DNA of 20,000 bases from an uncultured virus (IMG/VR IMGVR_UViG_3300007609_001041) (IMGVR_UViG_3300007609_001041:51989-71988), one strand, 5' to 3'. Numbered from the stretch's first letter, positions 2 through 13,742 are shown. A program made the numbers and translations. The notes: generated from the sequence alone by a model not told the origin.

Positions 2-1456
2 TTATCCGCCATAAATATCTCTTATATCTTTGCCTGTAATTTTTTTATATCGTTCTACTAGAAATGTTGGTGAGTCTAACGCAAATTTGTAACCTAAATC
101 TCTGCAATGATTGCGTAATCTAAACCATCTTTCAATTCTTACTTTTTGTGTGTTATCACCGATTTCCCATGCTCCTACATCGTCATAGTCTACACCCATT
201 TCTTGAAACTGATCGAATAGCGGCGTGCCTGGATAGATTCGCATAGTTGCTCCGAGACTGACTTGAAAAACTGTTCCATCTTTTGCATACTTGGCATTTC
301 GAGTAAACATGTCCATAGTTTCTTGAAATTCTTCCTCGCCTTCGCCCGGGTATCCAATTAGCATCATCATTACAGTATCGATGCCGTTTTTAGAACATTG
401 TTCCAAAGTGTAGTCAATATCAACAGCTCTAGCACCCTTTTTCATTGCATTAAGAACTTTTTGACTGCCGCTCTCGATACCTAACAGCATTCTAGTACAT
501 CCGCTCTTTGATAACTTTTCGTATATTTCTGGACCTTGCGAATTAGGAGGTCTCACAATAAATTGTCCTCCCCATTTTACACCATCTAAATTTTCTTCAA
601 TGAGTGTGTCCATCATTGCATCCATTTGGGGAATATTACCGTTTAGTAAACTATCTGTAAAATAAAACTCTTTTATTCCTGGATGCGTCTTAACTTGATG
701 TATAATTTCTTTTGCAATAGTTACTCCGCTTTTACTAGTAAAAGATGGCCAGCGTTTGCCTACATCACAAAACTTACAACGTCTAATACACCCTCTACTT
801 CCAGTTAAGTATAACAGATCTGTTCCTTTTGGATCTTCAAATGGATCTCTAAACAAATGACTATATTGTGACAAGTCATAATCTGTATAATCAGCAAACG
901 GAAGTGAATCTAACTCTTTCATCTGTATAGGAAACTTTCCGTTTATTCCTGGATAGTCTGTATTTCCGTTAAGCAGATGTAGTATAGGATTTTCTCCTTC
1001 TGCTTCCACATATGCATAAATTCTATCTTGTTTAAGATTAGTAGGCCCGTAATCAGGTGATGCACCCGGTCCTCCTAATATAACTTTAACTTCGGGCAAT
1101 CTAATAAGTATTTCGTCTAAGAACAAGTCACACATTACAAGTTGCCAATGACTTAATAATGTTATACCAACAAACTTTGGATTATAACCTGCAATTTTCT
1201 CTACAGCCTGTTCTACTAACGGAACAAATATATGTTTAACTTTTTCAAAATATTTCTTGTTAATTAGTGTTTGGTCGTTGTCTAGCCAAAGATGAGCATA
1301 TTCGTCTTTTACAATATTCCAAAATTCTACATTAAAGTCAATACATTTACTAGTATAACCATGTTCTTCGACAACTGCCTTTAGTGCTGCTGGCCCAATA
1401 AGAGGGCTTTGTACTTCAAATTTTGGAATACTAATAAAAACAATATCTTTATTCAT
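2..1456 (-). CDS. Cobalamin (B12)-binding domain radical SAM protein, copy 1
   Basis: 484 aa ORF. N-terminal B12-binding-type region (PLIGPAALKA...FVGIT...VILGGP...EGE), CxxxCxxC motif in SRGCIRRCKFC, then FTDS, GIESGS and IGYPGE motifs typical of this class. Overlaps the end of the upstream permease by 8 nt. Confidence 0.9.
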   Translation of the reverse strand: MNKDIVFISIPKFEVQSPLIGPAALKAVVEEHGYTSKCIDFNVEFWNIVKDEYAHLWLDNDQTLINKKYFEKVKHIFVPLVEQAVEKIAGYNPKFVGITLLSHWQLVMCDLFLDEILIRLPEVKVILGGPGASPDYGPTNLKQDRIYAYVEAEGENPILHLLNGNTDYPGINGKFPIQMKELDSLPFADYTDYDLSQYSHLFRDPFEDPKGTDLLYLTGSRGCIRRCKFCDVGKRWPSFTSKSGVTIAKEIIHQVKTHPGIKEFYFTDSLLNGNIPQMDAMMDTLIEENLDGVKWGGQFIVRPPNSQGPEIYEKLSKSGCTRMLLGIESGSQKVLNAMKKGARAVDIDYTLEQCSKNGIDTVMMMLIGYPGEGEEEFQETMDMFTRNAKYAKDGTVFQVSLGATMRIYPGTPLFDQFQEMGVDYDDVGAWEIGDNTQKVRIERWFRLRNHCRDLGYKFALDSPTFLVERYKKITGKDIRDIYGG

Positions 1457-2195
1457 AAGTTCGATTTACCCTTCCTAAGTATATGAGAACAGCATATACT
1501 ATAGTAGTTATCACACTTACTGATAAGACACTTGGACTAATGATGTCAGTAACATAACTCCACATAATAATTGGAAGAGTTTGAGTACTATGATCTAATA
1601 ACAACAACGCTACAATAAACTCGTCAAAACTAGTAATAAACGCAAGAGAACATCCTGCAAGCAATCCGGGCAACATAACTGGAAGTTGTATATCTTTTAA
1701 TATTTGAAAACTATTTGCACCGCATAGTCTAGCACTTTTTGCAATATTTTCATCATAGTTATTTAGACTACTTAGCGTCATTAAAATTACATAAGGAACA
1801 CATAAAACAGTATGTGCTATAATAAGATTGATAAAACTGTTAGTAAACCCTATATCATTAAAAAAGAAAATCCAGCCAAGGCCAATAATGATACTCGGTA
1901 TTACAATAGGACTGATTATTACACTTAGAACTATTCCGTTTCTATATTGGTTCAACCACAACGCCGCAGGAACAGATAGTAGTATACAACTAATAACAGT
2001 ATATGCTCCTACTTGAAAACTAGTTACAATACTTTTATACCACATAGGATCTGTAAATAATTGGTTATACCATTTCAAGCTGAACTCAAAATCAGAAATT
2101 TTAAAATAGTTTCCACCGTCAACGCTAAACAAAATAATAACCAACATAGGCATTAACAAATATAAGAACATGCCATAAGCAAATAATCTAAGCAC
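1449..2195 (-). CDS. potC: ABC transporter permease, PotC family
   Basis: Hydrophobic helices, FSLKWY motif, EAA-like loop (AKSARLCGAN), AFITSFDEF and TLP motifs. Start moved from 2231 to the GTG at 2195, which follows an AAGGAG Shine-Dalgarno and overlaps the potB stop. Confidence 0.88.
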   Translation of the reverse strand: MLRLFAYGMFLYLLMPMLVIILFSVDGGNYFKISDFEFSLKWYNQLFTDPMWYKSIVTSFQVGAYTVISCILLSVPAALWLNQYRNGIVLSVIISPIVIPSIIIGLGWIFFFNDIGFTNSFINLIIAHTVLCVPYVILMTLSSLNNYDENIAKSARLCGANSFQILKDIQLPVMLPGLLAGCSLAFITSFDEFIVALLLLDHSTQTLPIIMWSYVTDIISPSVLSVSVITTIVYAVLIYLGRVNRTYE

Positions 2196-3174
2196 GGGCG
2201 TCTCCTTTAAAGTTAATACGATAATAAACATAAAACAACATTAAACTAGTTGATAGCATAATAACTGTTAGCGCACTTGCTAGGCCCCAGTTTAATGTAT
2301 ATTGAACTTGTCTAATTATTTGTTCTGTAACAAACAGGCCTTTACTTCCACCTAACAGACTTGGAGTAATATAGTATCCAGTAACACTCATAAATGTTAG
2401 TATGGTGCTGTTTGCAATACCTTTGATTGTTTGCGGCAAATACACATATCTAAATGTTTGAAATTTATTAGCACCTGAAATTGTACTTACTTTAATTAAA
2501 TCGTTATTAACATTTTTCATAGCAAGATATATAGGTAATACACTTAGTGGCAGTGCGATATATACACTGCCTATATAAATTGCTGTAATTGTATTCATAA
2601 GATCGAAAGGTTGTAACAATAATATCCAACTAACTGTACGACTTAAGAAGCTACTAAACAGCGGAATCAACACAACAAATAGTGCAATCTTAGCTGCTTT
2701 GCCTTTTAGTTTAGTAAGATAATATGCAAGAGGATACGCTACTACTAAGCAAATGGCTGTAATAATTGCACTAAGAAGATATGTCCTTCCTATAACTTTT
2801 AAGTATAAGTCGTTAAATGCACGTTTAAAATTAGCAAATGTATAAGGCTTTACTTCTTGTTCTATTACACTCCAAAATGCAGGGTCTTGCCATCCAGGGT
2901 GTTCTAAACCTTTTCTAAACATACTTCGTGTTTTGTGATAGTGATGATTAAGGTAGGTGATAGATCTACGACTGTCCTCACGGGCTAAGTCACTTTTTAT
3001 AGCTTCAGTCCGGTCTCCGCCGTTAACTACGTAGTCGGTTATGTTTGGAAGATAACGTTCAACAGTTGTGTTGTAAACACTATTTTTAAGAATTTCACCT
3101 AGTGGAAGGAGAAAGAACACTGCTAGAAAAAATACTAGCGGTATAATCTTTCCATGTTTCGCAAACAAATTCAT
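2188..3174 (-). CDS. potB: ABC transporter permease, PotB family, with a long N-terminal extracytoplasmic loop
   Basis: 328 aa. AYPLAY, LIPLFSSFLSRTVSW, EAA-like loop (STISGAN), YYITPSLLGG and LNWGLASAL motifs. AGGAG upstream of the ATG. Confidence 0.88.
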   Translation of the reverse strand: MNLFAKHGKIIPLVFFLAVFFLLPLGEILKNSVYNTTVERYLPNITDYVVNGGDRTEAIKSDLAREDSRRSITYLNHHYHKTRSMFRKGLEHPGWQDPAFWSVIEQEVKPYTFANFKRAFNDLYLKVIGRTYLLSAIITAICLVVAYPLAYYLTKLKGKAAKIALFVVLIPLFSSFLSRTVSWILLLQPFDLMNTITAIYIGSVYIALPLSVLPIYLAMKNVNNDLIKVSTISGANKFQTFRYVYLPQTIKGIANSTILTFMSVTGYYITPSLLGGSKGLFVTEQIIRQVQYTLNWGLASALTVIMLSTSLMLFYVYYRINFKGDARA

Positions 3175-3838
3175 TTACAAAATCACTCCTAGGATTATCA
3201 AGAATTTCTGTAGGACTGCCTACTTGCTCTACTTTTCCTTGATTCATAATAACAATAGTGTCGCACATATTAAATGCTTCAGTGAAGTCGTGTGTGACGT
3301 ACACTACTGTTGTATTTTTAAGTAGCTGTTTAATATCTTTTTGTAATTTAATTCTTAGCTTTAAGTCTAGCGATGCTAAAGGTTCGTCCATTAGTATAAC
3401 ATCTGGATTATATACTAATGCCCTTGCAATTGCAACTCGCTGTTGTTGCCCACCGCTTAATTGTTTAGGATATTTATCAGCATGTTCTTCCATTCCTATA
3501 ACATTTAAAATATTAGATACAGCGGATGTATTCTTGCCTTTTACTCTCAATGGATATGCTATATTTTCATAAGCAGTCATATTAGGAAATAAACTAAAGT
3601 TTTGAAACACCATTCCTAGTGGTCTTTTATTACTACTTAGGCTAGTAATATCCAAACCGTTAACTATTACTTGTCCACAGTCTGGTGTTTCAAACCCTGT
3701 AATGCAATTAAGTAGGGTACTTTTGCCGCTGCCACTAGGTCCTAGAACAGCGACATTCGATCCAGAAGAAACATTAAAAGTTACATCATCGAGAACTTTA
3801 TCTCGAAATGTTTTGCTAATGTTCTTTATTTCTAGCAT
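3095..3838 (-). CDS. potA: ABC transporter ATP-binding subunit, PotA family (short, no C-terminal TOBE region)
   Basis: Walker A GPSGSGKST, Q-loop VFQNFSLFP, signature LSGGQQQR, Walker B ILMDEP, H-loop VTHD. TAATG coupling to the upstream potD. Confidence 0.92.
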   Translation of the reverse strand: MLEIKNISKTFRDKVLDDVTFNVSSGSNVAVLGPSGSGKSTLLNCITGFETPDCGQVIVNGLDITSLSSNKRPLGMVFQNFSLFPNMTAYENIAYPLRVKGKNTSAVSNILNVIGMEEHADKYPKQLSGGQQQRVAIARALVYNPDVILMDEPLASLDLKLRIKLQKDIKQLLKNTTVVYVTHDFTEAFNMCDTIVIMNQGKVEQVGSPTEILDNPRSDFVNEFVCETWKDYTASIFSSSVLSPSTR

Positions 3839-4923
3839 TAGTCTAAGAGCCAGGCTTCCCAGCGTTCATTGATGCGTTCGCCATTGTCAGCCCACCATGC
3901 GCCGTCACGTGGAATGCTACCAGTATAGTTATTAGGGTTAGTAACCATTTCGGCTTCCATGTCTGATCCAGTGTCTACCGAAGTCCAGTTGCCTGAATTT
4001 AAATCAATTGAACTCTTACGTGTAGGCGAGTAAGGAATAATACGACTAATTAGTGCTAGTGTTTCTGTACTAGTAGCATGTTGCAAAAACGCCTTTACTT
4101 CAGGAGTCATTTGTCCTTTTGCTACTACCCAAGGAGAAACTGTATAAATTTGTGCATCCCAAATTTGCTCAATGCTTTGTCCGTCTACGTTCTTGGCTTT
4201 CCAAAAACGTCCATTATAGCTTGCTAAAATTTGTACTTGTCCTGCACTCAATTGTTGAATACCAGCGGCTGCTTTGTCCCACCATACAATATGATCTTTA
4301 ATAGTATCTAACTTAGCAAATGCACGATCGAGTCCTTCGTCAGTTGCTAGTACATCACGTACAATGTTTCGATCCACTCCATCGGCAATCAGTGCCCATT
4401 CTAAGTTATTGTAAGGACGGCGTTGTAATCCTCGCTTTCCTGGAAACTGTTCAACATCAAATACATCGTAAATTGTTTGTGGTGCGTTGTTAGCGTATGT
4501 TTCTGGATCGTATCCAAACTGAATACTGTATACTGCCTGTGGTGCCACACAATCTTTTAGCATACCAGGAAGAAAGTCCTCACTAGGTAGTGTACCGTCT
4601 GGTGCAGGCAGCAACACATCGTCGTGATTAAAGTTTTCTACTAAACCGTCTTCGCATGCAATAGCAAGTGCTTCCTGAGGAATATCAATTACATCATATG
4701 TAATGTTTCCTGTTTCAATTTGTGTACGCAATGCTGCTAGTGCAGAGTGTGCATTTTTGATAACGTTTACAGTTACATCTGGATTCTGCTCAATAAACGG
4801 ATCAATTGCTGCTCTTTGTTGTGCTTCGCCCCATGCACCGCCATAATTTACAATATTTACAGTACTGTCAGCATATGCTGAACTTGCAACAAGTGCTAGA
4901 ACTGTCATAAAGGTATATTTCAT
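3838..4923 (-). CDS. potD: ABC transporter periplasmic substrate-binding protein, PotD/PotF (polyamine/amine) family
   Basis: Signal peptide MKYTFMTVLALVASSAYA|D, YGGAWGEAQ, FDVEQFPGKRGL, LEWALIADGV, LDRAFAKLDTIK, YNGR and C-terminal ERWEAWL. CAGGAG Shine-Dalgarno. The exact ligand cannot be determined from sequence. Confidence 0.88.
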   Translation of the reverse strand: MKYTFMTVLALVASSAYADSTVNIVNYGGAWGEAQQRAAIDPFIEQNPDVTVNVIKNAHSALAALRTQIETGNITYDVIDIPQEALAIACEDGLVENFNHDDVLLPAPDGTLPSEDFLPGMLKDCVAPQAVYSIQFGYDPETYANNAPQTIYDVFDVEQFPGKRGLQRRPYNNLEWALIADGVDRNIVRDVLATDEGLDRAFAKLDTIKDHIVWWDKAAAGIQQLSAGQVQILASYNGRFWKAKNVDGQSIEQIWDAQIYTVSPWVVAKGQMTPEVKAFLQHATSTETLALISRIIPYSPTRKSSIDLNSGNWTSVDTGSDMEAEMVTNPNNYTGSIPRDGAWWADNGERINERWEAWLLD

Positions 4924-4997
4924 TTCATCTCCTGTAAGTCTTACTATAGTAATTATCTACGTATATAACTTAGATATTTACTTCTGACATACTAATA

Positions 4998-5026
4998 ATA
5001 ATACTACAATCAGCTCTAGTAGTCAA
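4998..5026 (-). promoter_or_regulatory. Sigma70-type (early) promoter for the potDABC-radical SAM operon
   Basis: Minus strand reads TTGACT-17 nt-TATTAT, about 75 nt upstream of the potD start. Confidence 0.7.
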
Positions 5027-5054: not shown

Positions 5055-5909
5055 ATGTCATATAAAGTAACACATAATCACCATCTTAGCGTTCGCAAAA
5101 CAACAGATTATATTGTAAAATTAGGTCGTTGTGAGAACATGCCTATGGATTTTAAATCTGAAGCATTACGAGCTGCTAAGTTAATAGCAAAAGAATCTAA
5201 TAATATATGGATTAGTTACAGCGGCGGTATAGACAGTGAGTTTATTATTCAAGTGTTTCTTGAAGCAGGCATCCAATTTAGAGTTGCCACAATTGTTATG
5301 AAAGACGGATCTAACGATTACGATCTACAGCACAGTAGAAATTTTTGTAAACGTATGGGTATCAAGCTACACGAATTTGAAATTGATTTAGAAGAGTTTT
5401 ATAAAAATGATCTAGAAACATATGCTGTTGCAACTAATTGTATTAGTCCACAGTTTCCGGTGCATATGTGGTTATGGGATCAACTAGATGGATTTATAGT
5501 TGCAGGCCACGGTGATCCAATCTTTAAACGTAAAGATTCTAGATGGTATCTTCAAATTCAAAAAAAAGAAGACAGCGTATTTAGATATGCTCAGTGGAGA
5601 AATAGAAACATGGCTCCGGGATTTTACGTATATACTCCGGAACTTCTACTAAGTTTTATGCTAGAAAAAGAAGTAAGTAATATGTTTATTGCTCCTAAGT
5701 TAGCAGGGTTAAGAGATATTGCACAAGTCAAACATCTGGTTTATTCTAAATATTACGATATGGTCGAAAGAGAAAAAAGAACTGGCTTTGAGTTAGTAGA
5801 TAACTTAAACAATGAATATAAAATACATTTAGAAAATACAATACCCGGACATGGCGTATTTCTACAATCAGTAGAAGACCTATTACATAGAATTTGGCCT
5901 AAACTATGA
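5055..5909 (+). CDS. PP-loop (adenine nucleotide alpha-hydrolase-like) ATP pyrophosphatase family protein
   Basis: 284 aa. IWISYSGGIDSE PP-loop motif followed by the typical alpha/beta pattern (FCKRMGIKLHEFEID). Lacks the Zn-binding Cys cluster of QueC. Confidence 0.65.
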   Translation: MSYKVTHNHHLSVRKTTDYIVKLGRCENMPMDFKSEALRAAKLIAKESNNIWISYSGGIDSEFIIQVFLEAGIQFRVATIVMKDGSNDYDLQHSRNFCKRMGIKLHEFEIDLEEFYKNDLETYAVATNCISPQFPVHMWLWDQLDGFIVAGHGDPIFKRKDSRWYLQIQKKEDSVFRYAQWRNRNMAPGFYVYTPELLLSFMLEKEVSNMFIAPKLAGLRDIAQVKHLVYSKYYDMVEREKRTGFELVDNLNNEYKIHLENTIPGHGVFLQSVEDLLHRIWPKL

Positions 5910-6355
5910 TTATTAAACAAGTAGATTTTGAAACAGTGTTACCTGCGTGGGAAAACAATCTTTGGCCTAATCGCAAAGATCCTATTAAACCTACAAATAA
6001 TATTTGTTATCTAGGTGGAAGAGATAAAGATATTAATAATCAAACACCTGTATTTTTTGCCGTGTACGATAATAAAACTATAGTAGGTGTAAACAGCGGC
6101 TTTCCTACACTACACGGAGGATTTCGTAGTAGAGGTATTTGGGTTGATCCGGCATATAGAGAAAAAGGTGTTGGGGCAATGTTGCTAAATGCTGTAATTG
6201 ATTATGCTCGAGAGAATGAATATTCTTATGCATGGAGTATGCCAAGACAAAGTGCTCTATCAGCATATACTAATGTAGGCTTTGAGCAAACAAGCGATTT
6301 TTTTGACGAAGGCGTAGAGTTTGGTCCTAACTGTTTTGTAAGGATTGATCTATGA
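5906..6355 (+). CDS. GNAT family N-acetyltransferase
   Basis: Acetyl-CoA binding motif A (RGIWVDPAYREKGVGAMLL) and motif B (ALSAYTNVGF). ATGA overlaps with both neighbours. Confidence 0.88.
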   Translation: MIIKQVDFETVLPAWENNLWPNRKDPIKPTNNICYLGGRDKDINNQTPVFFAVYDNKTIVGVNSGFPTLHGGFRSRGIWVDPAYREKGVGAMLLNAVIDYARENEYSYAWSMPRQSALSAYTNVGFEQTSDFFDEGVEFGPNCFVRIDL

Positions 6356-7824
6356 CTGATGTAGTTTTAGTTACTTTACCTAAAATGGAAATTAGAGCAC
6401 CCTTAATTGGCCCGGCTGCTCTTAAAAGTATATGCGAAGCAGATGGGTACTCTGTACATTGCGTTGACTTTAATATCGAACTATATCATCAATTGCGAAC
6501 ACAAGTTCCTGAATGGTGGATTTATAATGATCAAACATTTATGCAAGACGATTTATTTGACGAAGCATGGACTACTATATTAGAACCTATAGTTCACAGC
6601 TGGTGTAAAAAACTACAAGACCTAAATCCTAAAGTAATTGGTGTTACAGTATTAAGCATGTGGACCGAACGTATCTGTAATAAGTTTTTGCAAACACTAG
6701 AATTATATTGTCCAGATACCCGTGTAGTATTAGGGGGACCGGGAACACAGCCAGCATATGGTCCAAAGATGCTAGAAGCAAAAAAAATTGATGCATACAT
6801 TACAGGCGAAGGCGAAGTTAGTTTTTTAGAATATCTTAGAGGCAACAAATATTATCCTGGAATAAATGGCAATCCTGCTGAACAGATTGGAGATATGAAT
6901 ACATTACCGTTTCCTGACTATAGTGATTTTGATTTATCAAAATATAGCAGCACTTGGTGGGAACCTCACAAAGAGCCAACAGGGTGTAAATGGTTGTATA
7001 TTACAGGCACTCGGGGGTGTATTAAGCGATGCACTTTTTGTAATGTAGGATCAATATGGCCAAAGTTTGTTAGCAAAACAGGTGAAACTATTGCTAAAGA
7101 AATAAAACATTATATGGATACTACAGGAGTAACTCACTATTATTTTACTGACAGTTTACTCAATGGTAATGTAAAGAATCTAGAAGAAATGGTAGACGCT
7201 ATTATTTCTTTAGGTATTAAGCCTACTATAAAAGGACAATGGATTGCTCGTGGTAAAGATTTAATTAATAGTGAGCTATGGAAAAAGATGGGCAGAGCAG
7301 GTTTCAAACAACTCTTAGTGGGTATCGAAAGTGGAAGTTATAAAACACGCAACGAAATGAAAAAGGGTGTTAGAGAAGAAGATATAGAATATACATTTGA
7401 ACAAGCAAGCAAAAACAAAATTAGATGTATACCGTTGCTTATGGTAGGATATCCAACAGAGACAGCAGAAGATTTTGAGGAAAATATTAAATTTTGGACT
7501 AGGTATAAAAAATATAATGACAATGGTACTATTCTAAAACCTAGTGTGATGGCAACGAATATTTTACCAGACACTCCTCTACATCATAAATTTACCGGAA
7601 ACGGACTAGAGTATGACGATTTAGGTAACTGGGTATATAAAGACAACACTATGAAAGTTCGAATCGAACGCTGGTTTAGATATCGAGACGAGGCACATCG
7701 CTTAGGTTATGAACTTACTTTAGATACTCCTAAACATCTCATAAGAGAATACAAGCGTATTACTGGAATAGATCTTAGTGAAGAATACAAACTCAAAGAT
7801 ACAGAAGAAATATGGAATGATTGA
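6352..7824 (+). CDS. Cobalamin (B12)-binding domain radical SAM protein, copy 2
   Basis: 490 aa. PLIGPAALKS, VVLGGP, TGEGE, TRGCIKRCTFC (CxxxCxxC), YFTDSLLNGN, GIESGS, VGYPTE. Co-linear paralog of 2..1456. Confidence 0.9.
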   Translation: MTDVVLVTLPKMEIRAPLIGPAALKSICEADGYSVHCVDFNIELYHQLRTQVPEWWIYNDQTFMQDDLFDEAWTTILEPIVHSWCKKLQDLNPKVIGVTVLSMWTERICNKFLQTLELYCPDTRVVLGGPGTQPAYGPKMLEAKKIDAYITGEGEVSFLEYLRGNKYYPGINGNPAEQIGDMNTLPFPDYSDFDLSKYSSTWWEPHKEPTGCKWLYITGTRGCIKRCTFCNVGSIWPKFVSKTGETIAKEIKHYMDTTGVTHYYFTDSLLNGNVKNLEEMVDAIISLGIKPTIKGQWIARGKDLINSELWKKMGRAGFKQLLVGIESGSYKTRNEMKKGVREEDIEYTFEQASKNKIRCIPLLMVGYPTETAEDFEENIKFWTRYKKYNDNGTILKPSVMATNILPDTPLHHKFTGNGLEYDDLGNWVYKDNTMKVRIERWFRYRDEAHRLGYELTLDTPKHLIREYKRITGIDLSEEYKLKDTEEIWND

Positions 7825-7851: not shown

Positions 7852-8454
7852 ATGATAAACACACTTTATAAAGTACCAATTTGGATACAAGACAATACAT
7901 TGCCGCAAGATAAATTAGATATGCTAGAACAAGCATGCTACGACAAGTGTCAACCATTGTCAGATTATCCAGATGAATTTAATCCTGATATTTTTAAATT
8001 TTCTCGTTCTAACAAAATAAATGTTCATACGGAGCCTGAATTTAAAGAAGTTACTAACTTAATGTTAACAGCCGCAAGAAATATGATGTTAGAAATGAGT
8101 TACACACAAGAACAGGCTCAGCGTCTTAGAATTGTTAACAGCTGGTTTGCAATATATAAAAATAAAGATAATCTACCTATGCATACACACCGTGATAGTT
8201 TCTTTTCAGGAGCATATTATATTAAAGATGTTACAGATTGTAAATTACGATTTATTCATGACATCTATAGAAATACACCTTACCCAGAAGATTTACATAA
8301 TGAATGGGGCAAAAATGTTACAGACTTTGATTGTAAAGACGGACGAATTATTATATTTCCTAGTGACTGTATACACGGAATTGATCAGCTTAATAGTAAT
8401 AAGCCCGATAATGAACCTATTAAAGTTATGTTATCGTATAATTTTAATTTTTAA
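7852..8454 (+). CDS. Putative 2OG-Fe(II) oxygenase (TIGR02466-like)
   Basis: SW...HTH..SFFSGAYY...GRIIIFPS..IH...SYNF pattern typical of phage 2OG-Fe(II) oxygenases. AAAGGA upstream. Confidence 0.8.
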   Translation: MINTLYKVPIWIQDNTLPQDKLDMLEQACYDKCQPLSDYPDEFNPDIFKFSRSNKINVHTEPEFKEVTNLMLTAARNMMLEMSYTQEQAQRLRIVNSWFAIYKNKDNLPMHTHRDSFFSGAYYIKDVTDCKLRFIHDIYRNTPYPEDLHNEWGKNVTDFDCKDGRIIIFPSDCIHGIDQLNSNKPDNEPIKVMLSYNFNF

Positions 8455-8945
8455 ACACAGGCAACAATATGAATTCGATCCTCAAAACTTCCGTTTAATG
8501 CTAGGTGCTTTAATCTAGTATCTAACCAATATAAATGACCTACTGATTCCATTCTTAATATTTCTTCGTCTACTATAAACATACAATTATTATTTGTAGT
8601 TACAGGAATATGCATTCGCGGGGTTGGATCTGTGTGATATGAATAACATTCTTTAGAGCGCAGTGTCATTACTCTAGTTCTATATAAATTATTTTCTTTA
8701 ATAATACTATTAATATATGGTATATCGTAGTAACATTCGGTAATATCTGTTTCTTCAAAATGTGTTTTAGCAGTTCTTTCTTTGTTTATAGGATCAAACA
8801 CATCAAAATCACCTCTCCATGTTTGTAGATTATTGTTAGAATTTATAGCGTAGTTAATACTTTCTAATTCACTAATAATCTTTTCAACATCATATTTTTT
8901 GCCTGTTTTTATAAATTTATTCACGTACCTTTTCCCTTCGGACAT
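8451..8945 (-). CDS. Aspartyl/asparaginyl beta-hydroxylase-like 2OG-Fe(II) oxygenase
   Basis: RTRVM...YSYHTD..RMHIPVTTN...WLDTRLKH.A.N.S.EDRIHIV, giving an HxD...H facial triad plus distal Arg. Confidence 0.78.
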   Translation of the reverse strand: MSEGKRYVNKFIKTGKKYDVEKIISELESINYAINSNNNLQTWRGDFDVFDPINKERTAKTHFEETDITECYYDIPYINSIIKENNLYRTRVMTLRSKECYSYHTDPTPRMHIPVTTNNNCMFIVDEEILRMESVGHLYWLDTRLKHLALNGSFEDRIHIVACV

Positions 8946-9373
8946 ACAGTTAATTCTTTTACTCTATACGGCTGGTCCAATACCCATTCAATTATACCTA
9001 CTACATATTCTAAATCCATTTTAGGAGTGTCAATGTCTGCTACTCGTTCGGTATCAAAAAAACCAAAATTTAAACATGTAGTATCGTAATAATTATCAAA
9101 AAGTTGGCTGTTTGCATCACGCAGAGCTTTCTTTTCTACGCCATATCTATATGTTTTTTTTCCTGGATGATAAATCCAGTCACTTGCTGAACTTCCTATA
9201 TTAATTACTTTTTTGTTTTTTTCTATTGCTTTGTAGAGTAATTTTACTTGAGAAAATTCGTCATGCTTACAGTTAATAAACACATCGCATTCGTCTAACG
9301 ATTCGCAATTGCCGTATTTTTCTTCAAGAACTTTTCCTAGACCTCGTCTTGTTCCTGTGATATAAAATTTCAT
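8921..9373 (-). CDS. Minimal short-chain dehydrogenase/reductase (SDR)-like protein
   Basis: TGTRRGLG (TGxxxGxG), DVFINC, INIGS, YGVEK (YxxxK), GFFDT. Only 150 aa. Confidence 0.75.
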   Translation of the reverse strand: MKFYITGTRRGLGKVLEEKYGNCESLDECDVFINCKHDEFSQVKLLYKAIEKNKKVINIGSSASDWIYHPGKKTYRYGVEKKALRDANSQLFDNYYDTTCLNFGFFDTERVADIDTPKMDLEYVVGIIEWVLDQPYRVKELTVCPKGKGT

Positions 9374-9440: not shown

Positions 9441-9794
9441 ATGGCATGGGGCTATCATTTATTAGTGGACTGTAAGCAAGGCGACATTCCTAGTATTACT
9501 AGCAAAGAAAATGTATCTACTTTTGTTAGGAAATTAGTAAAAGGAATTGACATGGTAGCATACGGTGATTTAATGATTGAACGCTTTGCTACACATGATC
9601 CTGATAAAGCCGGTATTAGTTTTTGTCAAATGATTGAAACGTCAAACATTACAGGACATTTCGTCGAACTTAATGGAAACTTTTATATTGATGTTTTTAG
9701 TTGTAAACCTTATGATACTCATACAGTGCTGGATTTAATACAAGAATATTTTAATCCAGCATCTGTTAGCACAACTTTTATTAATAGAGATTAA
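9441..9794 (+). CDS. speD: Pyruvoyl-dependent S-adenosylmethionine decarboxylase-family proenzyme (SpeD/SpeH class 1b)
   Basis: G.HLLVD N-terminus, self-cleavage region IETSNITGH (Ser68), IDVFSCK with the conserved Cys. AAAGGA Shine-Dalgarno. Confidence 0.85.
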   Translation: MAWGYHLLVDCKQGDIPSITSKENVSTFVRKLVKGIDMVAYGDLMIERFATHDPDKAGISFCQMIETSNITGHFVELNGNFYIDVFSCKPYDTHTVLDLIQEYFNPASVSTTFINRD

Positions 9795-10786
9795 GCAACT
9801 AAGTTGACCCAAGCGCCGTTTTCGTAGCCTTGGAATTTATTGTCAGTTGTATTATAGATAACCATGCCATTGGCAGCAGTTAATGCATCTCTTTCAGTAG
9901 TAGTTAAGCTACCAAACTGTACAAATCCTGTAAAAGAACCGTTTCCTCTAATGTCTAGTTCATTTTGAGGAAAGTATGTACCATAAGCAATACCTTCGTA
10001 TGTAATTGTAGTAGTAGTTTCTTGTACCCAGTTACCTGGATTTCCAGTAGCAAAGTCGTTTTGTATAAACAAACCATATCTACCACCGACAAGTTTTAAT
10101 CCTTGTCCTTTTAGACCAGTAGTTGTTCTACCAGAAAAAATAACTTCCCCATATGACTGATCTAAGTCGCCCATGTTGTCATACACAAGTTCTACTATAG
10201 CTCTATTACCATCCTCGCTGTAGAGTGTTTTACTTCCACTCATATTAGGAGCATGCAATGTACCGTTAATAGCATCTAATAAAAGACTAGAATCATCAGC
10301 AAACACACTACCTTCAATATCACCGACAACATTTCCAAAGTGAGATCCTGTCGTATTACCGATTACGCTACCAGTAACACTACCAGTTACATCACCTATT
10401 AAGTCGCCTACAATATTACCAGAACTTATAACTGACGTAGTATTAACAGGCCCAAGTATTTGTCCATTGATTGCATCTACTAACAATGTAGAATCGTCAG
10501 CGTAAATATTACCACGTAAGTCTAGTGCAGGATTGTCAGTAGGAGCCCAATTTGAACCATTATAAACAAGGATTTGATCTTTCTGCGGTGCTAATGCTTG
10601 CACATTGCCTAAATCTTCTAAATCTTGCGTAGATACTGAAACTGGAACACCGCCTACTGTTGCTCCATCGCCTACAAAAACTTCTTTAGAATCCGTAGTG
10701 TAAACGAGTTCACCTTCTGCAGGAGTAAATCCCGGACTGTCTTGTAATGCAGTCTTAGTTCCTCGTTTAATTCTTAACGTACCCAT
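9791..10786 (-). CDS. Phage virion fibre/decoration-like protein with Mtd-N-like N-terminal domain
   Basis: N-terminal LRIKRGT...PAEGELVYTTDSKEVFVGDG, internal G-x-x-x repeats and two ADDS..L.DAING repeats, C-terminal LTTTERDAL..ANGMVIYNTTDNKFQGYENGAW. These are modules typical of fibre proteins in large phages. AGGAG Shine-Dalgarno. Confidence 0.75.
   Translation of the reverse strand: MGTLRIKRGTKTALQDSPGFTPAEGELVYTTDSKEVFVGDGATVGGVPVSVSTQDLEDLGNVQALAPQKDQILVYNGSNWAPTDNPALDLRGNIYADDSTLLVDAINGQILGPVNTTSVISSGNIVGDLIGDVTGSVTGSVIGNTTGSHFGNVVGDIEGSVFADDSSLLLDAINGTLHAPNMSGSKTLYSEDGNRAIVELVYDNMGDLDQSYGEVIFSGRTTTGLKGQGLKLVGGRYGLFIQNDFATGNPGNWVQETTTTITYEGIAYGTYFPQNELDIRGNGSFTGFVQFGSLTTTERDALTAANGMVIYNTTDNKFQGYENGAWVNLVA
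10262..10513 (-). repeat. Intragenic protein repeats in the fibre gene
   Basis: GNIYADDSTLLVDAING (10463-10513) and GSVFADDSSLLLDAING (10262-10312) flank a run of tetrapeptide repeats GNIV-GDLI-GDVT-GSVT-GSVI-GNTT-GSHF-GNVV-GDIE. Confidence 0.85.
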
Positions 10787-12066: not shown

Positions 12067-12348
12067 TTATTTATATTTTAGGAAAGGACATGCAAGAACG
12101 AAATAGGAAAGCTCTTTTGGATCTTCAAATCCGACTCTTACAATGTTATCTATTTTATTTTCGCTAGTAACTCCTACGCTTTTACTAAGAAAATATCTTT
12201 TTTTAAGATTAGCTTCTATCCATTTTTCTAATGCTTTTTCTATATTATATGTGTAAGCTAAGTCAATAGTTTCAAGGTGGGGAGGCTGATGAGAAAGCCT
12301 CCTTATCTTAAATAAATTTTCTGGTGTAGTAGCAGACTTAATTGACAT
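12067..12348 (-). CDS. Hypothetical phage protein (93 aa)
   Basis: Start reassigned from 12498 to the ATG at 12348 (MSIKSATTPENLF...), which reduces the overlap with the VWA gene to 11 nt. Confidence 0.7.
   Translation of the reverse strand: MSIKSATTPENLFKIRRLSHQPPHLETIDLAYTYNIEKALEKWIEANLKKRYFLSKSVGVTSENKIDNIVRVGFEDPKELSYFVLACPFLKYK
12068..12075 (-). promoter_or_regulatory. T4-like late promoter TATAAATA
   Basis: Exact TATAAATA on the minus strand, overlapping the stop of the upstream gene, about 38 nt before the ATG at 12030. Confidence 0.55.
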
Positions 12349-13654
12349 GTTCGTCGTACAGTGCCGTTTGTCCAAATGGTGCCTGAATGTTCTTGTCGTG
12401 GTGAGAGTGAATAACAAATACTGTATCACAGTAGTCCTCGTCGCCCCAGCTGTTCCAAGCATAACCATCTGTAAACATAATAAACTTCTTAGGAACAATG
12501 TTATTTTCTTTCATGTAATCCCAGTTACACATAAAGTCAGTACCACCGCCACCTACAATTTCGTAGTCTAGCAAGTCATCTCCTCCGTCTGCACTAAAGT
12601 CTTGCTCATTATATACCTTAGTGTCAAAACACCACAATTTAATATTGTAGTCTTTATACTCTTCCATAATACCTTTGATTTCGCTAAGAAAGTCCTGAGC
12701 TTGATCATTACCAATTGACCCGCTCATATCAAGAGATACAGCAATATCAATTGTCTCTGAGAAATTCATACCAGGTAGTACTGCACCAGTATGCCAACCT
12801 TTACGTGACGGACGTTGAAACGTAAAGTCGTTTCGAATAGTGCTCTGGATTTGTTGACGTAACAGTTCACGCCAGTTCATCTTAGGCTCTGTAAGCTCTT
12901 TAATCATCCTAGCAACTTCGCCTGGAATATTTCCTGCTCCGGCACTTTGCGCTGCACTAAGCATGTTCTCTTTGATCTCGTCTTTGATCTGCTTCATTTC
13001 TTCTTCAGAGAACTTAGGCCTACGCTTGCTTACATCGTTGCCGTTACTGTCTTCGCCTTCTGCATCACCTTCACTGTCATTGTCGTCTTCGCCTTCACCG
13101 TCAAGGTGTTCATCTAGCATTTCGCCTAACTTTTCTAAGAACTCTTCGCCGTTTTTTTCAGCTTGCTCGAATAAGTCATCATACACTTCTTCCGAACTCC
13201 AGCCGTCGTATTTAAAGTCTTGGAAACAGTCTACAATCTTAGGAGTTTCGCCGATGCGATCACGTACTAGAGTATTGTTTACAATATAGTCAGCTGCAAT
13301 ATTATACAGCATGGGATTACGTTCTTCACGTCGCCCTAAGTGATCAAACACCATGTGTAGAATTTCGTGTGCAACAACAAACTCGATCTCCTTGTTTGAC
13401 ATTGCATTAAAGAATTGTGTGTTATAATATAAGTTACGTCCGTCTACAGCGGCTGTCGGAAGCCAGTCATCAGCCGCTAGTACACGCAATCGTGTTGCCA
13501 TATTACCAAAGAATGGATGACGTAGTAGCAAGCCGACTCGTGCAATAATAATACGATCGTATACTTCTACACGCATTTTTTCTAATTCTTCTTGCGTGAT
13601 ATCCGGGTCGGGTGTCCAGTTTTTAAGTTTACTTGCTGTATCTTTAGCCGCCAT
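12338..13654 (-). CDS. Metallopeptidase-like (HExxH) plus VWA domain protein (DUF2201-like)
   Basis: TAAVDG...AHEILH...NIAADY..N zincin-like N-domain, acidic linker, VWA MIDAS motif DMSGS...GGGTDF...FTDG. Confidence 0.88.
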   Translation of the reverse strand: MAAKDTASKLKNWTPDPDITQEELEKMRVEVYDRIIIARVGLLLRHPFFGNMATRLRVLAADDWLPTAAVDGRNLYYNTQFFNAMSNKEIEFVVAHEILHMVFDHLGRREERNPMLYNIAADYIVNNTLVRDRIGETPKIVDCFQDFKYDGWSSEEVYDDLFEQAEKNGEEFLEKLGEMLDEHLDGEGEDDNDSEGDAEGEDSNGNDVSKRRPKFSEEEMKQIKDEIKENMLSAAQSAGAGNIPGEVARMIKELTEPKMNWRELLRQQIQSTIRNDFTFQRPSRKGWHTGAVLPGMNFSETIDIAVSLDMSGSIGNDQAQDFLSEIKGIMEEYKDYNIKLWCFDTKVYNEQDFSADGGDDLLDYEIVGGGGTDFMCNWDYMKENNIVPKKFIMFTDGYAWNSWGDEDYCDTVFVIHSHHDKNIQAPFGQTALYDEHVN

Positions 13655-13686
13655 ATTGCACCTTATTTGTTAATTTCTATAGTATA

Positions 13687-13715
13687 ACTATAACAGTATT
13701 TACAGAGTAAGTCAA
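13687..13715 (-). promoter_or_regulatory. Sigma70-type promoter for the peptidase-VWA gene
   Basis: TTGACT-17 nt-TATAGT with an extended -10 TGn, on the minus strand. Confidence 0.7.
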
Positions 13716-13720
13716 GAGAT

Positions 13721-13741
13721 TAAGGGGCATTATGCCCCTTA
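13721..13741 (-). terminator. Stem-loop directly after the AAA+ ATPase stop (probable terminator or processing hairpin)
   Basis: TAAGGGGCA-TTA-TGCCCCTTA perfect 9-bp stem, 1 nt after the stop codon. The following U-tract is weak (ATCTCTT). Confidence 0.6.
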
Positions 13742-13742
13742 G

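What the first reader, a model, noticed from the sequence alone, without database searches (positions are those of the whole stretch)
1449..5026. Complete four-component polyamine-type ABC importer in a phage, with its own early-type promoter
Seen: binding protein with signal peptide, ATPase with all catalytic motifs intact and both permeases, translationally coupled behind TTGACT-17-TATTAT. Established: phage transport genes are usually lone components such as PstS, so a whole multi-subunit importer is uncommon. Polyamines neutralise DNA during packaging and are a nitrogen source. Inference: the phage installs its own uptake system early in infection. The binding protein (LPAPDGTLPSEDF, LEWALIADGV) and the long PotB loop resemble, from memory, marine alphaproteobacterial versions, which may hint at the host.
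Basis: partly seen in the sequence, partly recalled or inferred. Interest (0 to 1): 0.8.

Follow-up and report, generated by a model that had tools for sequence, protein, structure and literature searches.

The report
Jumbo-phage ABC importer tied to enzymes
A very large bacteriophage carries a complete four-protein nutrient uptake pump, always sitting among the same unusual enzymes in related phages, and it probably imports a small amino-acid-like compound rather than polyamines.

Summary
Window 1449-4923 (minus strand) encodes a binding protein with a signal peptide, an ATPase with all motifs intact, and two permeases, in overlapping frames behind TTGACT-17-TATTAT.

The contig is a jumbo myophage. 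The window is a 100% identical part of a 261,806-bp IMG/VR contig that has a T4-type capsid gene.

- Substrate: the binding protein is 12-16% identical to true PotD/PotF. Its closest solved relative is "SAR11 PotD" bound to GABA (Z 43.4, 34% identity), followed by GABA and opine binders. Polyamine is therefore a family label, not a substrate call.
- Host: the nearest cellular homologues (at most 47% identity) are mixed Gamma- and Alphaproteobacteria, so they give no host hint.

New findings from 15 related loci:
- The binding proteins form one clade (support 100).
- All four genes are under strong purifying selection (dN/dS 0.04-0.10).
- The ATPase lacks the C-terminal regulatory domain in 11 of 11 loci.
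- Gene order differs from cells: D-A-B-C in 9 of 9, against A-D-B-C in 106 of 106.
- The promoter motif is kept in 10 of 10.
- The transporter genes are interleaved with the same enzymes: an AsnB-like PP-loop synthetase, a GNAT, B12-radical-SAM enzymes, an ATP-grasp ligase and 2OG oxygenases.

Two 2026 preprints already report complete ABC systems in phages. I rate this a new variant of a known kind.

The parts
4998..5026 (-). sigma-70-type promoter-like site TTGACT-17-TATTAT, 74 nt upstream of the binding-protein ATG
   Evidence: Searches show it is present (10 of 12 matches to consensus); both hexamers and the 17-nt spacing are kept in L103 and L104 while the spacer and 5' leader vary. TTGAC[AT]-17-TAnnnT lies 27-69 nt before the SBP start in 9 of 9 relatives; 54 such motifs in the 262-kb contig against 9.8 in shuffles, 38 of them in the roughly 5.5% that is non-coding.
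3838..4923 (-). periplasmic substrate-binding protein (361 aa, type-I signal peptide, no lipobox)
   Evidence: Pfam SBP_bac_8, E 2.6e-39. AF2 model pLDDT 91.6. Best PDB match 8jv1, Z 43.4, rmsd 2.1, 338 aligned, 34% identity. phmmer against 8jv1, E 4.6e-53. Signal peptides.
3095..3838 (-). ABC ATPase (247 aa), minimal nucleotide-binding domain without the C-terminal regulatory domain
   Evidence: Pfam ABC_tran, E 6.6e-38. The best NCBIfam profiles are all 325-378 positions long and are matched only over their first ~235-250 positions. The alignment shows viral proteins ending about 10-20 residues after the NBD, while cellular ones continue for about 120 residues. ORF lengths are 228-258 aa in 11 of 11 viral loci.
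2188..3174 (-). permease 1 (PotB-like, 328 aa), with a ~100-residue loop between TM1 and TM2
   Evidence: Pfam BPD_transp_1, E 1.3e-15. Hydropathy puts TM1 at 10-28 and the next TM at 127-145. Cellular homologues align from residue ~26, so the loop is a subfamily trait.
1449..2231 (-). permease 2 (PotC-like, 260 aa)
   Evidence: Pfam BPD_transp_1, E 4.6e-16. NCBIfam PotC 110.7 bits against a cut-off of 326.
2..1456 (-). B12-binding radical SAM enzyme (484 aa), overlaps the last permease gene by 8 nt; same operon
   Evidence: Pfam Radical_SAM, E 2.2e-19, and B12-binding, E 6.2e-8. An orthologue at 51-88% identity lies next to the ABC genes in L103-L108 and L111.
5055..5909 (+). stand-alone PP-loop synthetase (284 aa, invariant SGGIDSE), divergent from the SBP gene here and between the SBP and ATPase genes in more distant relatives
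   Evidence: Weak Pfam PP-loop hits. Motif invariant in 10 of 10 sequences. Model pLDDT 83.8. Best folds are the asparagine synthetase B, beta-lactam synthetase and carbapenam synthetase synthetase domains, Z 12.8-15.3 over 223-252 residues. Within 1.3 kb of the SBP gene in 13 of 13 assessable loci.
5906..6355 (+). GNAT acetyltransferase (149 aa)
   Evidence: Pfam Acetyltransf_1, E 4.3e-12. Co-located in L103-L109, L113 and L182.
6352..7824 (+). second B12-binding radical SAM enzyme (490 aa)
   Evidence: Pfam. Orthologues at 62-84% identity in L103-L108, L111 and L113. Homologues are almost all unnamed metagenome proteins.
7852..8454 (+). 2OG-Fe(II) oxygenase (200 aa)
   Evidence: Pfam 2OG-FeII_Oxy_5, E 1.1e-10. 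phrog_81, E 3.1e-24.
8451..9373 (-). cupin-type Asp/Arg-hydroxylase-like protein (164 aa) and a 150-aa protein of no family (labelled 'SDR-like' by eye only; no family hit); both lie just upstream of the SBP gene in more distant relatives
   Evidence: Pfam Asp_Arg_Hydrox, E 4.2e-6. Synteny in L103, L104, L107-L110, L114, L163 and G002.
9441..9794 (+). divergent AdoMet-decarboxylase-family protein (117 aa), the only polyamine-linked gene nearby
   Evidence: Pfam AdoMet_dc, E 4.8e-16. NCBIfam 32.3 bits against a cut-off of 75.65. Present in L103, L104 and L108. Phage homologues can be AdoMetDC, ADC or ODC (PMC9992855, passages read).

Best explanation
This is a working, phage-owned, binding-protein-dependent ABC importer carried by a lineage of jumbo myophages of Gram-negative hosts.

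Shown:
- All four subunits are intact.
- They have been inherited together inside phages for a long time and are under strong purifying selection.

Inferred mechanism:
- The host sigma-70 RNA polymerase reads a conserved promoter before late genes.
- The binding protein is exported by the host Sec system into the periplasm.
- The two permeases and two copies of a stripped-down ATPase form the pump. The ATPase has no C-terminal regulatory domain, so it is probably free of feedback inhibition.

Inferred cargo:
- Most likely a small compound carrying both an amine (or onium) group and a carboxylate, of the GABA, betaine or opine kind. A polyamine is less likely.

Inferred use:
- The transporter genes are interleaved in one operon with a stand-alone AsnB-type carboxylate-adenylating synthetase, an ATP-grasp ligase, a GNAT, B12-radical-SAM enzymes and 2OG oxygenases.
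- The imported compound is therefore most likely the feedstock of that phage-encoded tailoring pathway. Its product is unknown.
For: Phage context:
- The window is a 100% identical part of a 261,806-bp viral contig with a Gp23 capsid gene.
- Capsid relatives are jumbo phages at 66-72% identity.
- Baseplate, tail and late-sigma genes are present.
- This is the only ABC set on the contig: 2 BPD_transp_1 and 1 ABC_tran matches.

Long residence in phages:
- 11 full-length SBPs form one clade, SH-aLRT 100.
- dN/dS is 0.04-0.10, with pS 0.59-0.72, for all four genes.
- GC is 0.32-0.40, like the phage.

Viral variant:
- ATPase ORFs are 228-258 aa in 11 of 11 viral loci, against at least 343 aa in 117 of 125 other loci.
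- Order is SBP-ATPase-PermB-PermC in 9 of 9 viral loci, against ATPase-SBP-PermB-PermC in 106 of 106 others.

Promoter:
- Kept in 10 of 10 loci.
- It belongs to a genome-wide class: 54 motifs against 9.8 expected, 22 of them in front of genes. These include the SbcD-like, late-sigma and RNase-H-like genes, and none lies in the structural block.

Cargo:
- Best PDB relatives are SAR11 PotD with GABA (Z 43.4), GABA sensors, Atu4243, and the opine binders MotA and AgtB (Z 35-37). True polyamine binders score Z about 28 at 12-16% identity.
- SAR11 potD binds glycine betaine (Kd 2 nM), DMSP and other osmolytes (PMC11485210).
- Atu4243 holds the GABA carboxylate with an Arg, between aromatic residues (PMC3656012).
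- Of 11 cellular homologue loci, 3 have an AraC-family regulator gene with a DJ-1/PfpI domain and 1 has an OpuAC gene next door. I recall that domain pair from betaine/carnitine regulators of the GbdR type.

Coupling to the enzymes:
- The PP-loop gene is within 1.3 kb of the SBP gene in 13 of 13 assessable loci, and lies between the SBP and ATPase genes in L105-L108 and L110-L113.
- B12-rSAM orthologues are adjacent in 8-9 loci, despite shuffled order.
- The PP-loop model resembles AsnB, beta-lactam synthetase and carbapenam synthetase.
Against: - No transport, binding or expression data exist.
- The ligand is inferred from relatives at only 28-34% identity. This SBP family changes specificity easily.
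- A divergent AdoMetDC-family gene lies 4.5 kb away and in 3 relatives. That keeps a polyamine link alive.
- Linkage with the enzymes could reflect a shared accessory island rather than shared chemistry. The island is large and rich in radical SAM genes, and distant homologues of those enzymes occur in 27 other viral loci without ABC genes.
- All relatives were found through the SBP, so the co-occurrence count is one-directional.
- The window contig and L103-L106 come from overlapping sample series, so not all loci are independent.
- The promoter's timing class is inferred from which genes share it, not measured.
Confidence: 0.55

Rival explanations
1. One reading: a polyamine (spermidine/putrescine) importer that supplies counter-ions for DNA packaging, or nitrogen, installed early in infection.
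For: - The best NCBIfam hits of the permeases are PotB and PotC, and PotA is among the top ATPase hits.
- JGI annotations of homologues read 'putative spermidine/putrescine transport system substrate-binding protein'.
- An AdoMetDC-family gene lies at 9441-9794 and in L103, L104 and L108.
- Viruses commonly encode polyamine enzymes (PMC9992855).
Against: - All Pot hits are far below their curated cut-offs, and the SBP has no NCBIfam hit.
- True PotD, PotF, SpuD and VcPotD1 are 12-16% identical, at Z 26-28, well below the GABA, osmolyte and opine binders at Z 35-43.
- The same 'potD' annotation in SAR11 was shown experimentally to be wrong (PMC11485210).
- The PNAS survey of viral polyamine metabolism does not mention transport or uptake (0 occurrences).
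- This view does not explain why carboxylate-activating enzymes sit inside the transporter operon.
Confidence: 0.17
2. A general osmolyte or nutrient uptake gene set (glycine betaine, DMSP or GABA type) that boosts the infected cell's turgor, energy or C/N supply. Its position next to the enzyme genes would then be only shared residence in an accessory island.
For: - The closest characterised relative is the broad osmolyte binder of SAR11.
- AraC-family regulator genes with a DJ-1/PfpI domain, or OpuAC genes, neighbour the homologue in 4 of 11 cellular loci. I recall that domain pair from GbdR-type betaine regulators.
- Many of the named cellular homologues come from halophiles and soda-lake bacteria.
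- The radical SAM families are scattered through related phages without ABC genes.
Against: - Enzyme genes sit between the SBP and ATPase genes on the same strand in L105-L108 and L110-L113.
- The PP-loop gene stays beside the SBP gene in 13 of 13 loci through repeated rearrangement and down to 57% SBP identity.
- The last permease gene overlaps the B12-rSAM gene by 8 nt.
Confidence: 0.23
3. An assembly chimera, or host DNA carried in a mis-called viral contig.
For: - The window's 72-kb record is only a sub-stretch of the same 262-kb contig, so it is not an independent assembly.
- The GenBank 'phage' records with distant permease hits that I opened (4 of 30) are all flagged UNVERIFIED.
Against: - Phage genes lie on both sides: 237 kb to the left, and strong PHROG hits to the right (phrog_1314 E 1.4e-115, phrog_1297 E 1.8e-101).
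- The same cassette occurs beside phage tail-fibre synteny in an independent 64-kb IMG/VR contig and in about 12 other contigs.
- GC and promoter class match the phage.
Confidence: 0.03

Closest known systems
SAR11 'PotD' (PDB 8jv1-8jv4; presumably SAR11_1336 of Ca. Pelagibacter ubique) and its cellular ABC operon
   Same: - Same SBP subfamily: E 4.6e-53, 34% identity, Z 43.4 over 338 residues.
- Same four-component type I importer layout.
- Carries the same misleading spermidine/putrescine annotation.
   Different: - Only 34% identical, and its ligand is not transferable.
- Cellular homologues have the order ATPase-SBP-permease-permease and a full-length ATPase.
- The phage version is embedded in an enzyme cassette.
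- That 8jv1 is SAR11_1336 is my inference from the entry title and the paper.
E. coli PotD-PotABC spermidine importer (TC 3.A.1.11.1; PDB 1pot, 8y5i)
   Same: Same overall family of SBP fold, the same permease family (BPD_transp_1) and the same ATPase clade.
   Different: - The SBP is 13% identical, at Z 26.6-28.1.
- Every equivalog cut-off is missed.
- There is no C-terminal domain on the ATPase.
- Gene order is D-A-B-C, not A-B-C-D (the E. coli order is recalled).
GABA and opine binding proteins Atu4243, Pf622 (iGABASnFR), MotA, AgtB
   Same: These are the second tier of structural relatives: Z 35-37, 24-33% identity, aligned over the full length. Their ligands all carry a carboxylate and an amine.
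   Different: They are cellular proteins of plant-associated bacteria. The binding-site residues could not be mapped here.
Complete ABC cassettes already reported in phages: Nitrosospira/Nitrosomonas phage roc5 (bioRxiv 10.64898/2026.05.02.722434) and 15 PspA-adjacent systems in huge phages (bioRxiv 10.64898/2026.10.24.761521)
   Same: In each, a binding protein, permease(s) and an ATPase are encoded together on a phage genome (passages read).
   Different: - roc5 has an arabinose-like (sugar) system, and the huge-phage systems sit next to PspA.
- Neither preprint mentions a Pot/GABA-type system: the huge-phage one has 0 occurrences of polyamine or spermidine, and the ABC passages read in roc5 describe a sugar system.
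- The passages I read describe no truncated ATPase and no radical SAM enzyme cassette. I read passages only, and bioRxiv supplements are closed.
Cyanophage PstS (lone phosphate-binding protein as an auxiliary gene; recalled, not searched here)
   Same: A phage-encoded periplasmic binding protein used to raise uptake during infection.
   Different: PstS relies on the host's own permease and ATPase. Here the phage brings all four parts.

Membership tests
Type I binding-protein-dependent ABC importer | Exported substrate-binding protein | tested here: met
   SBP_bac_8, E 2.6e-39. Type-I signal peptide in 21 of 21 clade members. Two-lobe SBP fold with pLDDT 91.6.
Type I binding-protein-dependent ABC importer | Two membrane subunits of the BPD_transp_1 family with an EAA-type loop | tested here: met
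   Both permeases are above the Pfam cut-off (58.1 and 59.5 bits against 26.4). Multiple TM segments. The EAA-like stretches were read by eye in the translations (motif recalled).
Type I binding-protein-dependent ABC importer | ATPase with Walker A, Q-loop, signature, Walker B and H-loop | tested here: met
   ABC_tran 130.8 bits. Motifs were read in the and 63 sequences and are conserved in 8 of 8 viral ATPases aligned.
Type I binding-protein-dependent ABC importer | ATP-driven uptake of a ligand | not testable with these tools
   Needs uptake assays.
PotABCD / PotFGHI polyamine importers (TC 3.A.1.11) | Subunits reach the curated equivalog scores | tested here: not met
   PotA 256.3 against 482, PotB 118.1 against 348, PotC 110.7 against 326, PotG 214.5 against 613. 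The SBP matched no family.
PotABCD / PotFGHI polyamine importers (TC 3.A.1.11) | Binding protein closest to characterised polyamine binders | tested here: not met
   PotD, PotF, SpuD, SpuE and VcPotD1 score Z 25.9-28.3 at 12-16% identity. Non-polyamine binders score Z 32.7-43.4 at 22-34% identity. No PotD or PotF appears in the phmmer hits at E <= 0.001.
PotABCD / PotFGHI polyamine importers (TC 3.A.1.11) | ATPase with a C-terminal regulatory domain | tested here: not met
   The protein is 247 aa, and it matches only positions 18-251 of the 378-position PotA profile.
PotABCD / PotFGHI polyamine importers (TC 3.A.1.11) | Binds and transports spermidine or putrescine | not testable with these tools
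   Needs binding and uptake assays.
SAR11-PotD / Atu4243 / MotA subfamily of SBP_bac_8 proteins | Full-length sequence and fold similarity to solved members | tested here: met
   8jv1, E 4.6e-53. Z 43.4, rmsd 2.1, 338 residues aligned. The next 16 entries all belong to this group.
SAR11-PotD / Atu4243 / MotA subfamily of SBP_bac_8 proteins | Arg plus aromatic pocket that holds a carboxylate-bearing amine | tested here: inconclusive
   Six Arg and several Trp residues are invariant in the 28-sequence alignment. I could not map them onto the ligand sites because no coordinates or residue numbers were available.
Tailed jumbo myophage with T4-type core | Gp23-type capsid, baseplate, tail and late-sigma genes on the same contig | tested here: met
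   Gp23, E 1.3e-81. PHROG baseplate wedge E 3.5e-291 and late sigma E 1.7e-81. Capsid 66-72% identical to 284-469 kb phages. CheckV completeness 73% at 262 kb.

The most novel reading that the evidence does not exclude
The importer is the dedicated feed line of a phage-encoded small-molecule or macromolecule-tailoring pathway. The phage would pull an extracellular amino-carboxylate into the infected cell. It would then activate the carboxylate with a stand-alone AsnB/beta-lactam-synthetase-like enzyme and an ATP-grasp ligase, and decorate the result with GNAT, B12-radical-SAM and 2OG enzymes. The product would be something the host cannot make, for example a modified amide or lactam metabolite, or a group attached to phage DNA or virion. 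That would be a virus bringing both the door and the factory for an exogenous precursor.
Probability: 0.3. Interest if true: 0.85.

Novelty: new variant of a known kind. Interest (0 to 1): 0.62.

Why it matters
Phage auxiliary transport genes are usually single parts that plug into host machinery. Here a whole four-subunit importer has been kept, streamlined and given its own promoter across a diverged lineage of jumbo phages. It is tied gene by gene to a set of rare enzymes.

If the link is functional, some phages depend on a compound taken from the environment during infection and process it with their own chemistry. That would add a new kind of virus-driven flux of dissolved organic matter and possibly a new natural-product or modification pathway.

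There is also a practical warning. 'Spermidine/putrescine' labels on viral and marine potD-like genes should not be read as polyamine uptake.

The system is small enough to test directly by expressing four genes, with or without the cassette, in a laboratory Gram-negative strain.

Tried and rejected
- Megablast of the whole window against GenBank phages found nothing. tblastn of the SBP also found nothing.
- The permease gave 30 distant records, all below 60% identity. The 4 I opened of those 30 are unannotated UNVERIFIED records, so they do not count as phage examples. The other 26 were not opened.
- A full-text search for '8JV1' returned only irrelevant papers. A search for a paper on the SAR11 PotD structure found only Clifton et al. 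and its preprint.
- The earlier-findings index had nothing for this genome or sequence, and the word search gave unrelated importers.
There is therefore no read-level check of contiguity or expression, and read laying was not used.
- PDB sequence searches gave only generic superfamily hits for the ATP-grasp protein (best E 8e-5, D-Ala-D-Ala ligase or biotin carboxylase types), the PP-loop protein (nothing meaningful) and the B12-rSAM enzyme (4 generic hits).
- The homologue search for the second B12-rSAM found almost only unnamed metagenome proteins.
- The protein atlas placed the PP-loop protein in viral clusters with weak QueC/Asn_synthase labels.
- NCBIfam on 25 island proteins named only one family above its cut-off, a twitch-domain radical SAM (310 bits against 170). 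It also gave PseC/LegC-like aminotransferase hits below cut-off.
- I considered an enzyme-class parallel with complex carbapenem clusters, which combine an AsnB-like synthetase, B12-radical-SAM enzymes, 2OG oxygenases and a GNAT (recalled). No crotonase-type gene appeared in the Pfam scans of the window and island. The similarity is at fold level only. I keep it as a lead, not a claim.
- Distant homologues (24-38% identity) of the B12-rSAM occur in 28 other IMG/VR loci. Only one of them, the G002 contig already known, has the SBP.
- Neighbours of cellular homologues were heterogeneous, and many ORF calls in GC-rich loci had no family.

Full report
**What is there.** ORF listing and Pfam put four ABC-importer genes on the minus strand:
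- a 361-aa SBP_bac_8 binding protein (3838-4923, E 2.6e-39);
- a 247-aa ABC ATPase (3095-3838, E 6.6e-38);
- two BPD_transp_1 permeases (2188-3174, 328 aa; 1449-2231, 260 aa).

The ATPase has every catalytic motif (read). The binding protein begins with a type-I signal peptide and has no lipobox cysteine, as do all 21 members of its clade. That points to a free periplasmic protein and so to a Gram-negative host.

The genes overlap: TAATG, then 80, 44 and 8 nt. The overlapping chain runs on into a B12-binding radical SAM gene (2-1456) and an ATP-grasp gene left of the window.

**Is it in a phage?**
- The window lies in a 71,988-bp record that is a 100% identical sub-stretch of a 261,806-bp IMG/VR contig, at positions 183,932-255,919. 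This means the two records are not independent assemblies.
- That contig has a Gp23-type capsid gene (E 1.3e-81). CheckV rates it 73% complete, and it carries 13 tRNA genes.
- PHROG hits include baseplate wedge (E 3.5e-291), baseplate hub/lysozyme, tail fibres, a 4,986-aa virion protein, a late sigma factor and an SbcD-like nuclease.
- The capsid protein is 66-72% identical to those of 284-469 kb phages of Sinorhizobium, Vibrio, Xanthomonas, Pseudomonas (PA5oct) and Erwinia.
- To the right of the ABC genes lie strong phage families: phrog_1314 E 1.4e-115, phrog_1297 E 1.8e-101 and an exonuclease at E 3.1e-40.
- The contig holds exactly two permease matches and one ABC ATPase match, all in this operon.

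**The promoter.** TTGACT-17-TATTAT is at 5026..4998 on the minus strand. Alone it means little in this AT-rich DNA: 50 promoter-like sites against 44.9 +/- 6.9 in shuffles. Three further results make it credible.
- In the two closest relatives both hexamers and the 17-nt spacing are kept, while the spacer and leader vary. Synonymous sites between these genomes are near saturation (pS 0.59-0.72).
- In 9 of 9 relatives a TTGAC[AT]-17-TAnnnT motif lies 27-69 nt before the binding-protein start, whatever gene is upstream. Two of these are perfect TTGACA-17-TATAAT.
- On the 262-kb contig this pattern occurs 54 times against 9.8 (range 5-20) in mononucleotide shuffles. Of these, 38 lie in the roughly 5.5% of the contig that is non-coding, and 22 lie 5-120 nt before a same-strand gene. 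Those genes include the SbcD-like, late-sigma, DUF2201 and RNase-H-like genes. None lies between 186.4 and 231.7 kb, where the structural genes are.

So the operon has a promoter of the phage's sigma-70-type class. 'Early' is a reasonable inference but is not measured.

**What kind of transporter?**
- NCBIfam gives Pot-type best hits for the permeases and PhnT2/PotA-type hits for the ATPase. All are far below their cut-offs, and the binding protein has no hit.
- Against PDB sequences the best match is 8jv1 (E 4.6e-53), followed by GABA sensors, MotA, Atu4243 and AgtB.
- An AlphaFold model built on 28 sequences (pLDDT 91.6) aligns best to 8jv1, 'Structure of the SAR11 PotD in complex with GABA' (Z 43.4, rmsd 2.1, 338 residues, 34% identity).
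- The next group is GABA and opine binders (Z 32.7-37.2). The true polyamine binders PotD, PotF, SpuD/E and VcPotD1 score Z 25.9-28.3 at 12-16% identity.
- Clifton et al. 2024 (PMC11485210, passages read) showed that the SAR11 potD product, annotated as spermidine/putrescine-binding, binds glycine betaine (Kd 2.0 nM), DMSP and other osmolytes. That 8jv1 is this protein is my inference.
- In Atu4243, GABA stacks between aromatic residues and its carboxylate meets an Arg (PMC3656012).
- I could not map pocket residues, so the ligand stays open. The nearest characterised relatives all bind carboxylate-bearing amines or onium compounds, not polyamines.
- Cellular homologues at 40-47% identity point weakly the same way. 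Of 11 loci, 3 have an AraC-family regulator gene with a DJ-1/PfpI domain next door, 1 has an OpuAC gene and 1 has a class-III aminotransferase. I recall that domain pair from GbdR-type betaine regulators.

**A viral lineage of the transporter.**
- The large protein search gave four clusters at 86-91% identity, sixteen at 52-64%, and then cellular proteins at 47% or less.
- In one genome per 185,579 species, the best cellular match was 47% (Halomonadaceae), with Rhodobacterales and Halomonas at 46%.
- JGI metagenomes and IMG/VR gave 14 further loci at 57-89% identity.
- Two of them lie on IMG/VR contigs of 63,955 and 28,908 bp, rated 18% and 9% complete. They are therefore fragments of equally large phages. 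One shows tail-fibre synteny with the window's phage, followed by an accessory island of more than 50 kb.
- On a 93-row tree the 11 full-length viral-type binding proteins form one clade (SH-aLRT 100). Path lengths of about 1 change per site separate its subclades. The next starred set holds 15 Gamma- and 6 Alphaproteobacteria and 2 unnamed rows. The tree used the quick method with a midpoint root, so no donor can be named.
- dN/dS among the three closest genomes is 0.04-0.10 for each of the four genes.
- GC of the operon (0.32-0.40) matches the phage.

**How the viral version differs from cells.**
- ATPase ORFs are 228-258 aa in 11 of 11 viral loci with a complete ORF. They are at least 343 aa in 117 of 125 other loci; the other 8 are shorter and were not examined.
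- Gene order is binding protein-ATPase-permease-permease in 9 of 9 viral loci that have all four genes. It is ATPase-binding protein-permease-permease in 106 of 106 others.
- The alignment shows viral ATPases ending 10-20 residues after the nucleotide-binding domain. Cellular ones carry about 120 more residues and a longer N-terminus.
- The best-matching NCBIfam ATPase profiles are all long forms, so the short form is derived.
- In related importers this C-terminal domain mediates feedback or regulatory control (established knowledge, recalled). Its loss suggests an unregulated pump.
- The long loop after TM1 of the first permease is shared with cellular homologues. It is a subfamily trait, not a host marker.

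**The enzyme cassette.** tblastn of the phage's proteins against the relatives shows that the ABC genes always travel with the same enzymes, in shuffled order.
- A PP-loop protein lies within 1.3 kb of the binding-protein gene in 13 of 13 loci where the sequence allows a check. Two further loci end inside the gene.
- In the window, L103 and L104 the PP-loop gene is divergent from the binding-protein gene. In L105-L108 and L110-L113 it lies on the same strand between the binding-protein and ATPase genes, often with a GNAT.
- Orthologues of the two B12-radical-SAM enzymes (51-88% identity), a third radical SAM, an ATP-grasp ligase, 2OG oxygenases, a cupin and, in three relatives, an AdoMetDC-family gene complete the set.
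- None of 80 cellular loci has these enzymes beside the transporter.
- The PP-loop protein keeps SGGIDSE in 10 of 10 sequences. Its model (pLDDT 83.8) is most like the synthetase domains of asparagine synthetase B, beta-lactam synthetase and carbapenam synthetase (Z 12.8-15.3). These enzymes adenylate a carboxylate and form an amide.
- With the ATP-grasp ligase and the GNAT, that makes three amide-forming enzymes beside a transporter whose relatives carry carboxylate-bearing amines. This is the basis of my preferred reading that the importer feeds the cassette. It remains an inference.
- Against it: the relatives were all found through the binding protein. The island is large and rich in radical SAM genes. 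Distant homologues of the B12-rSAM occur in 27 other viral loci without ABC genes.

**Prior knowledge.**
- A 2026 preprint on phages of ammonia oxidisers reports a complete arabinose-type ABC cassette in phage roc5 and calls it the first (10.64898/2026.05.02.722434, passages read).
- Another 2026 preprint notes 15 complete ABC systems next to PspA genes in huge phages (10.64898/2026.10.24.761521, passage read).
- Whole importers in phages are thus just entering the literature.
- In what I read, neither describes a Pot/GABA-type system, a truncated ATPase or a linked enzyme cassette. Their supplements were not available to me.
- The survey of viral polyamine metabolism (PMC9992855) contains no occurrence of 'transport' or 'uptake'.
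- PHROGs has families for ABC ATPases and for this permease type, but none for this binding protein.
- A permease-pattern scan of 2.9 million IMG/VR contigs returned only the window's own contig.

The most likely account is a streamlined phage-owned importer for a small amino-carboxylate. It would be expressed from a host-type promoter and serve a co-inherited tailoring pathway (confidence 0.55).

The rivals are general osmolyte uptake (0.23), polyamine uptake (0.17) and an assembly artefact (0.03).

Noticed in passing
G000:C1:13114-28074 (locus L002:15-14975, outside the window): A single 4,986-aa ORF follows the baseplate genes. It matches phrog_10938 'virion structural protein' (1,027 bits) and has a short head-closure-like stretch. 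This is an unusually large virion protein.
   Followed up: no
G000:C1:34000-52000 (L003/L004) and G002:C1:11500-63900: Between the tail-fibre genes and the ABC operon lies a large accessory island. It holds many radical SAM paralogues, including a twitch-domain radical SAM above its NCBIfam cut-off (310 against 170 bits). It also holds a PseC/LegC-like sugar aminotransferase, a NodU-type carbamoyltransferase, a nitroreductase-family protein and a SPASM-domain protein. In the related contig G002 this island exceeds 50 kb and has at least 8 paralogues of the twitch-domain enzyme.
   Followed up: partly
window 9441-9794 (+): An AdoMet-decarboxylase-family protein scores far below the NCBIfam cut-off (32.3 against 75.65 bits). 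By eye, the expected self-cleavage Glu-Ser seems to read Glu-Thr-Ser. Phage homologues of this family have been shown to be arginine or ornithine decarboxylases instead (PMC9992855).
   Followed up: no
window 9791-10786 (-): A 331-aa protein has an Mtd_N domain (major tropism determinant N-terminus, E 1.6e-11) and a tail-fibre-like C-terminal end. A 38-47% identical homologue flanks the cassette in L103, L104 and L107. No reverse transcriptase was seen in the window.
   Followed up: no
window 12338-14831 (-): A DUF2201 metallopeptidase/VWA protein and a MoxR-type AAA ATPase form a pair (phrog_1314 E 1.4e-115, phrog_1297 E 1.8e-101). The pair is conserved at 50-62% identity in other jumbo-phage contigs found through the radical SAM search.
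   Followed up: no
G001:C1:18-2382 and 66842-67093: There are two tRNA clusters of 10 and 3 genes, including tRNA-Met, Trp, Cys and Tyr, on the 262-kb contig.
   Followed up: no
window 3095-3174 (-): The last 22 codons of the short ATPase overlap the first 26 codons of the permease gene in another frame. The tail sequence is conserved in L103 and L104 but absent in more distant relatives, where the overlap is only 4 nt.
   Followed up: partly
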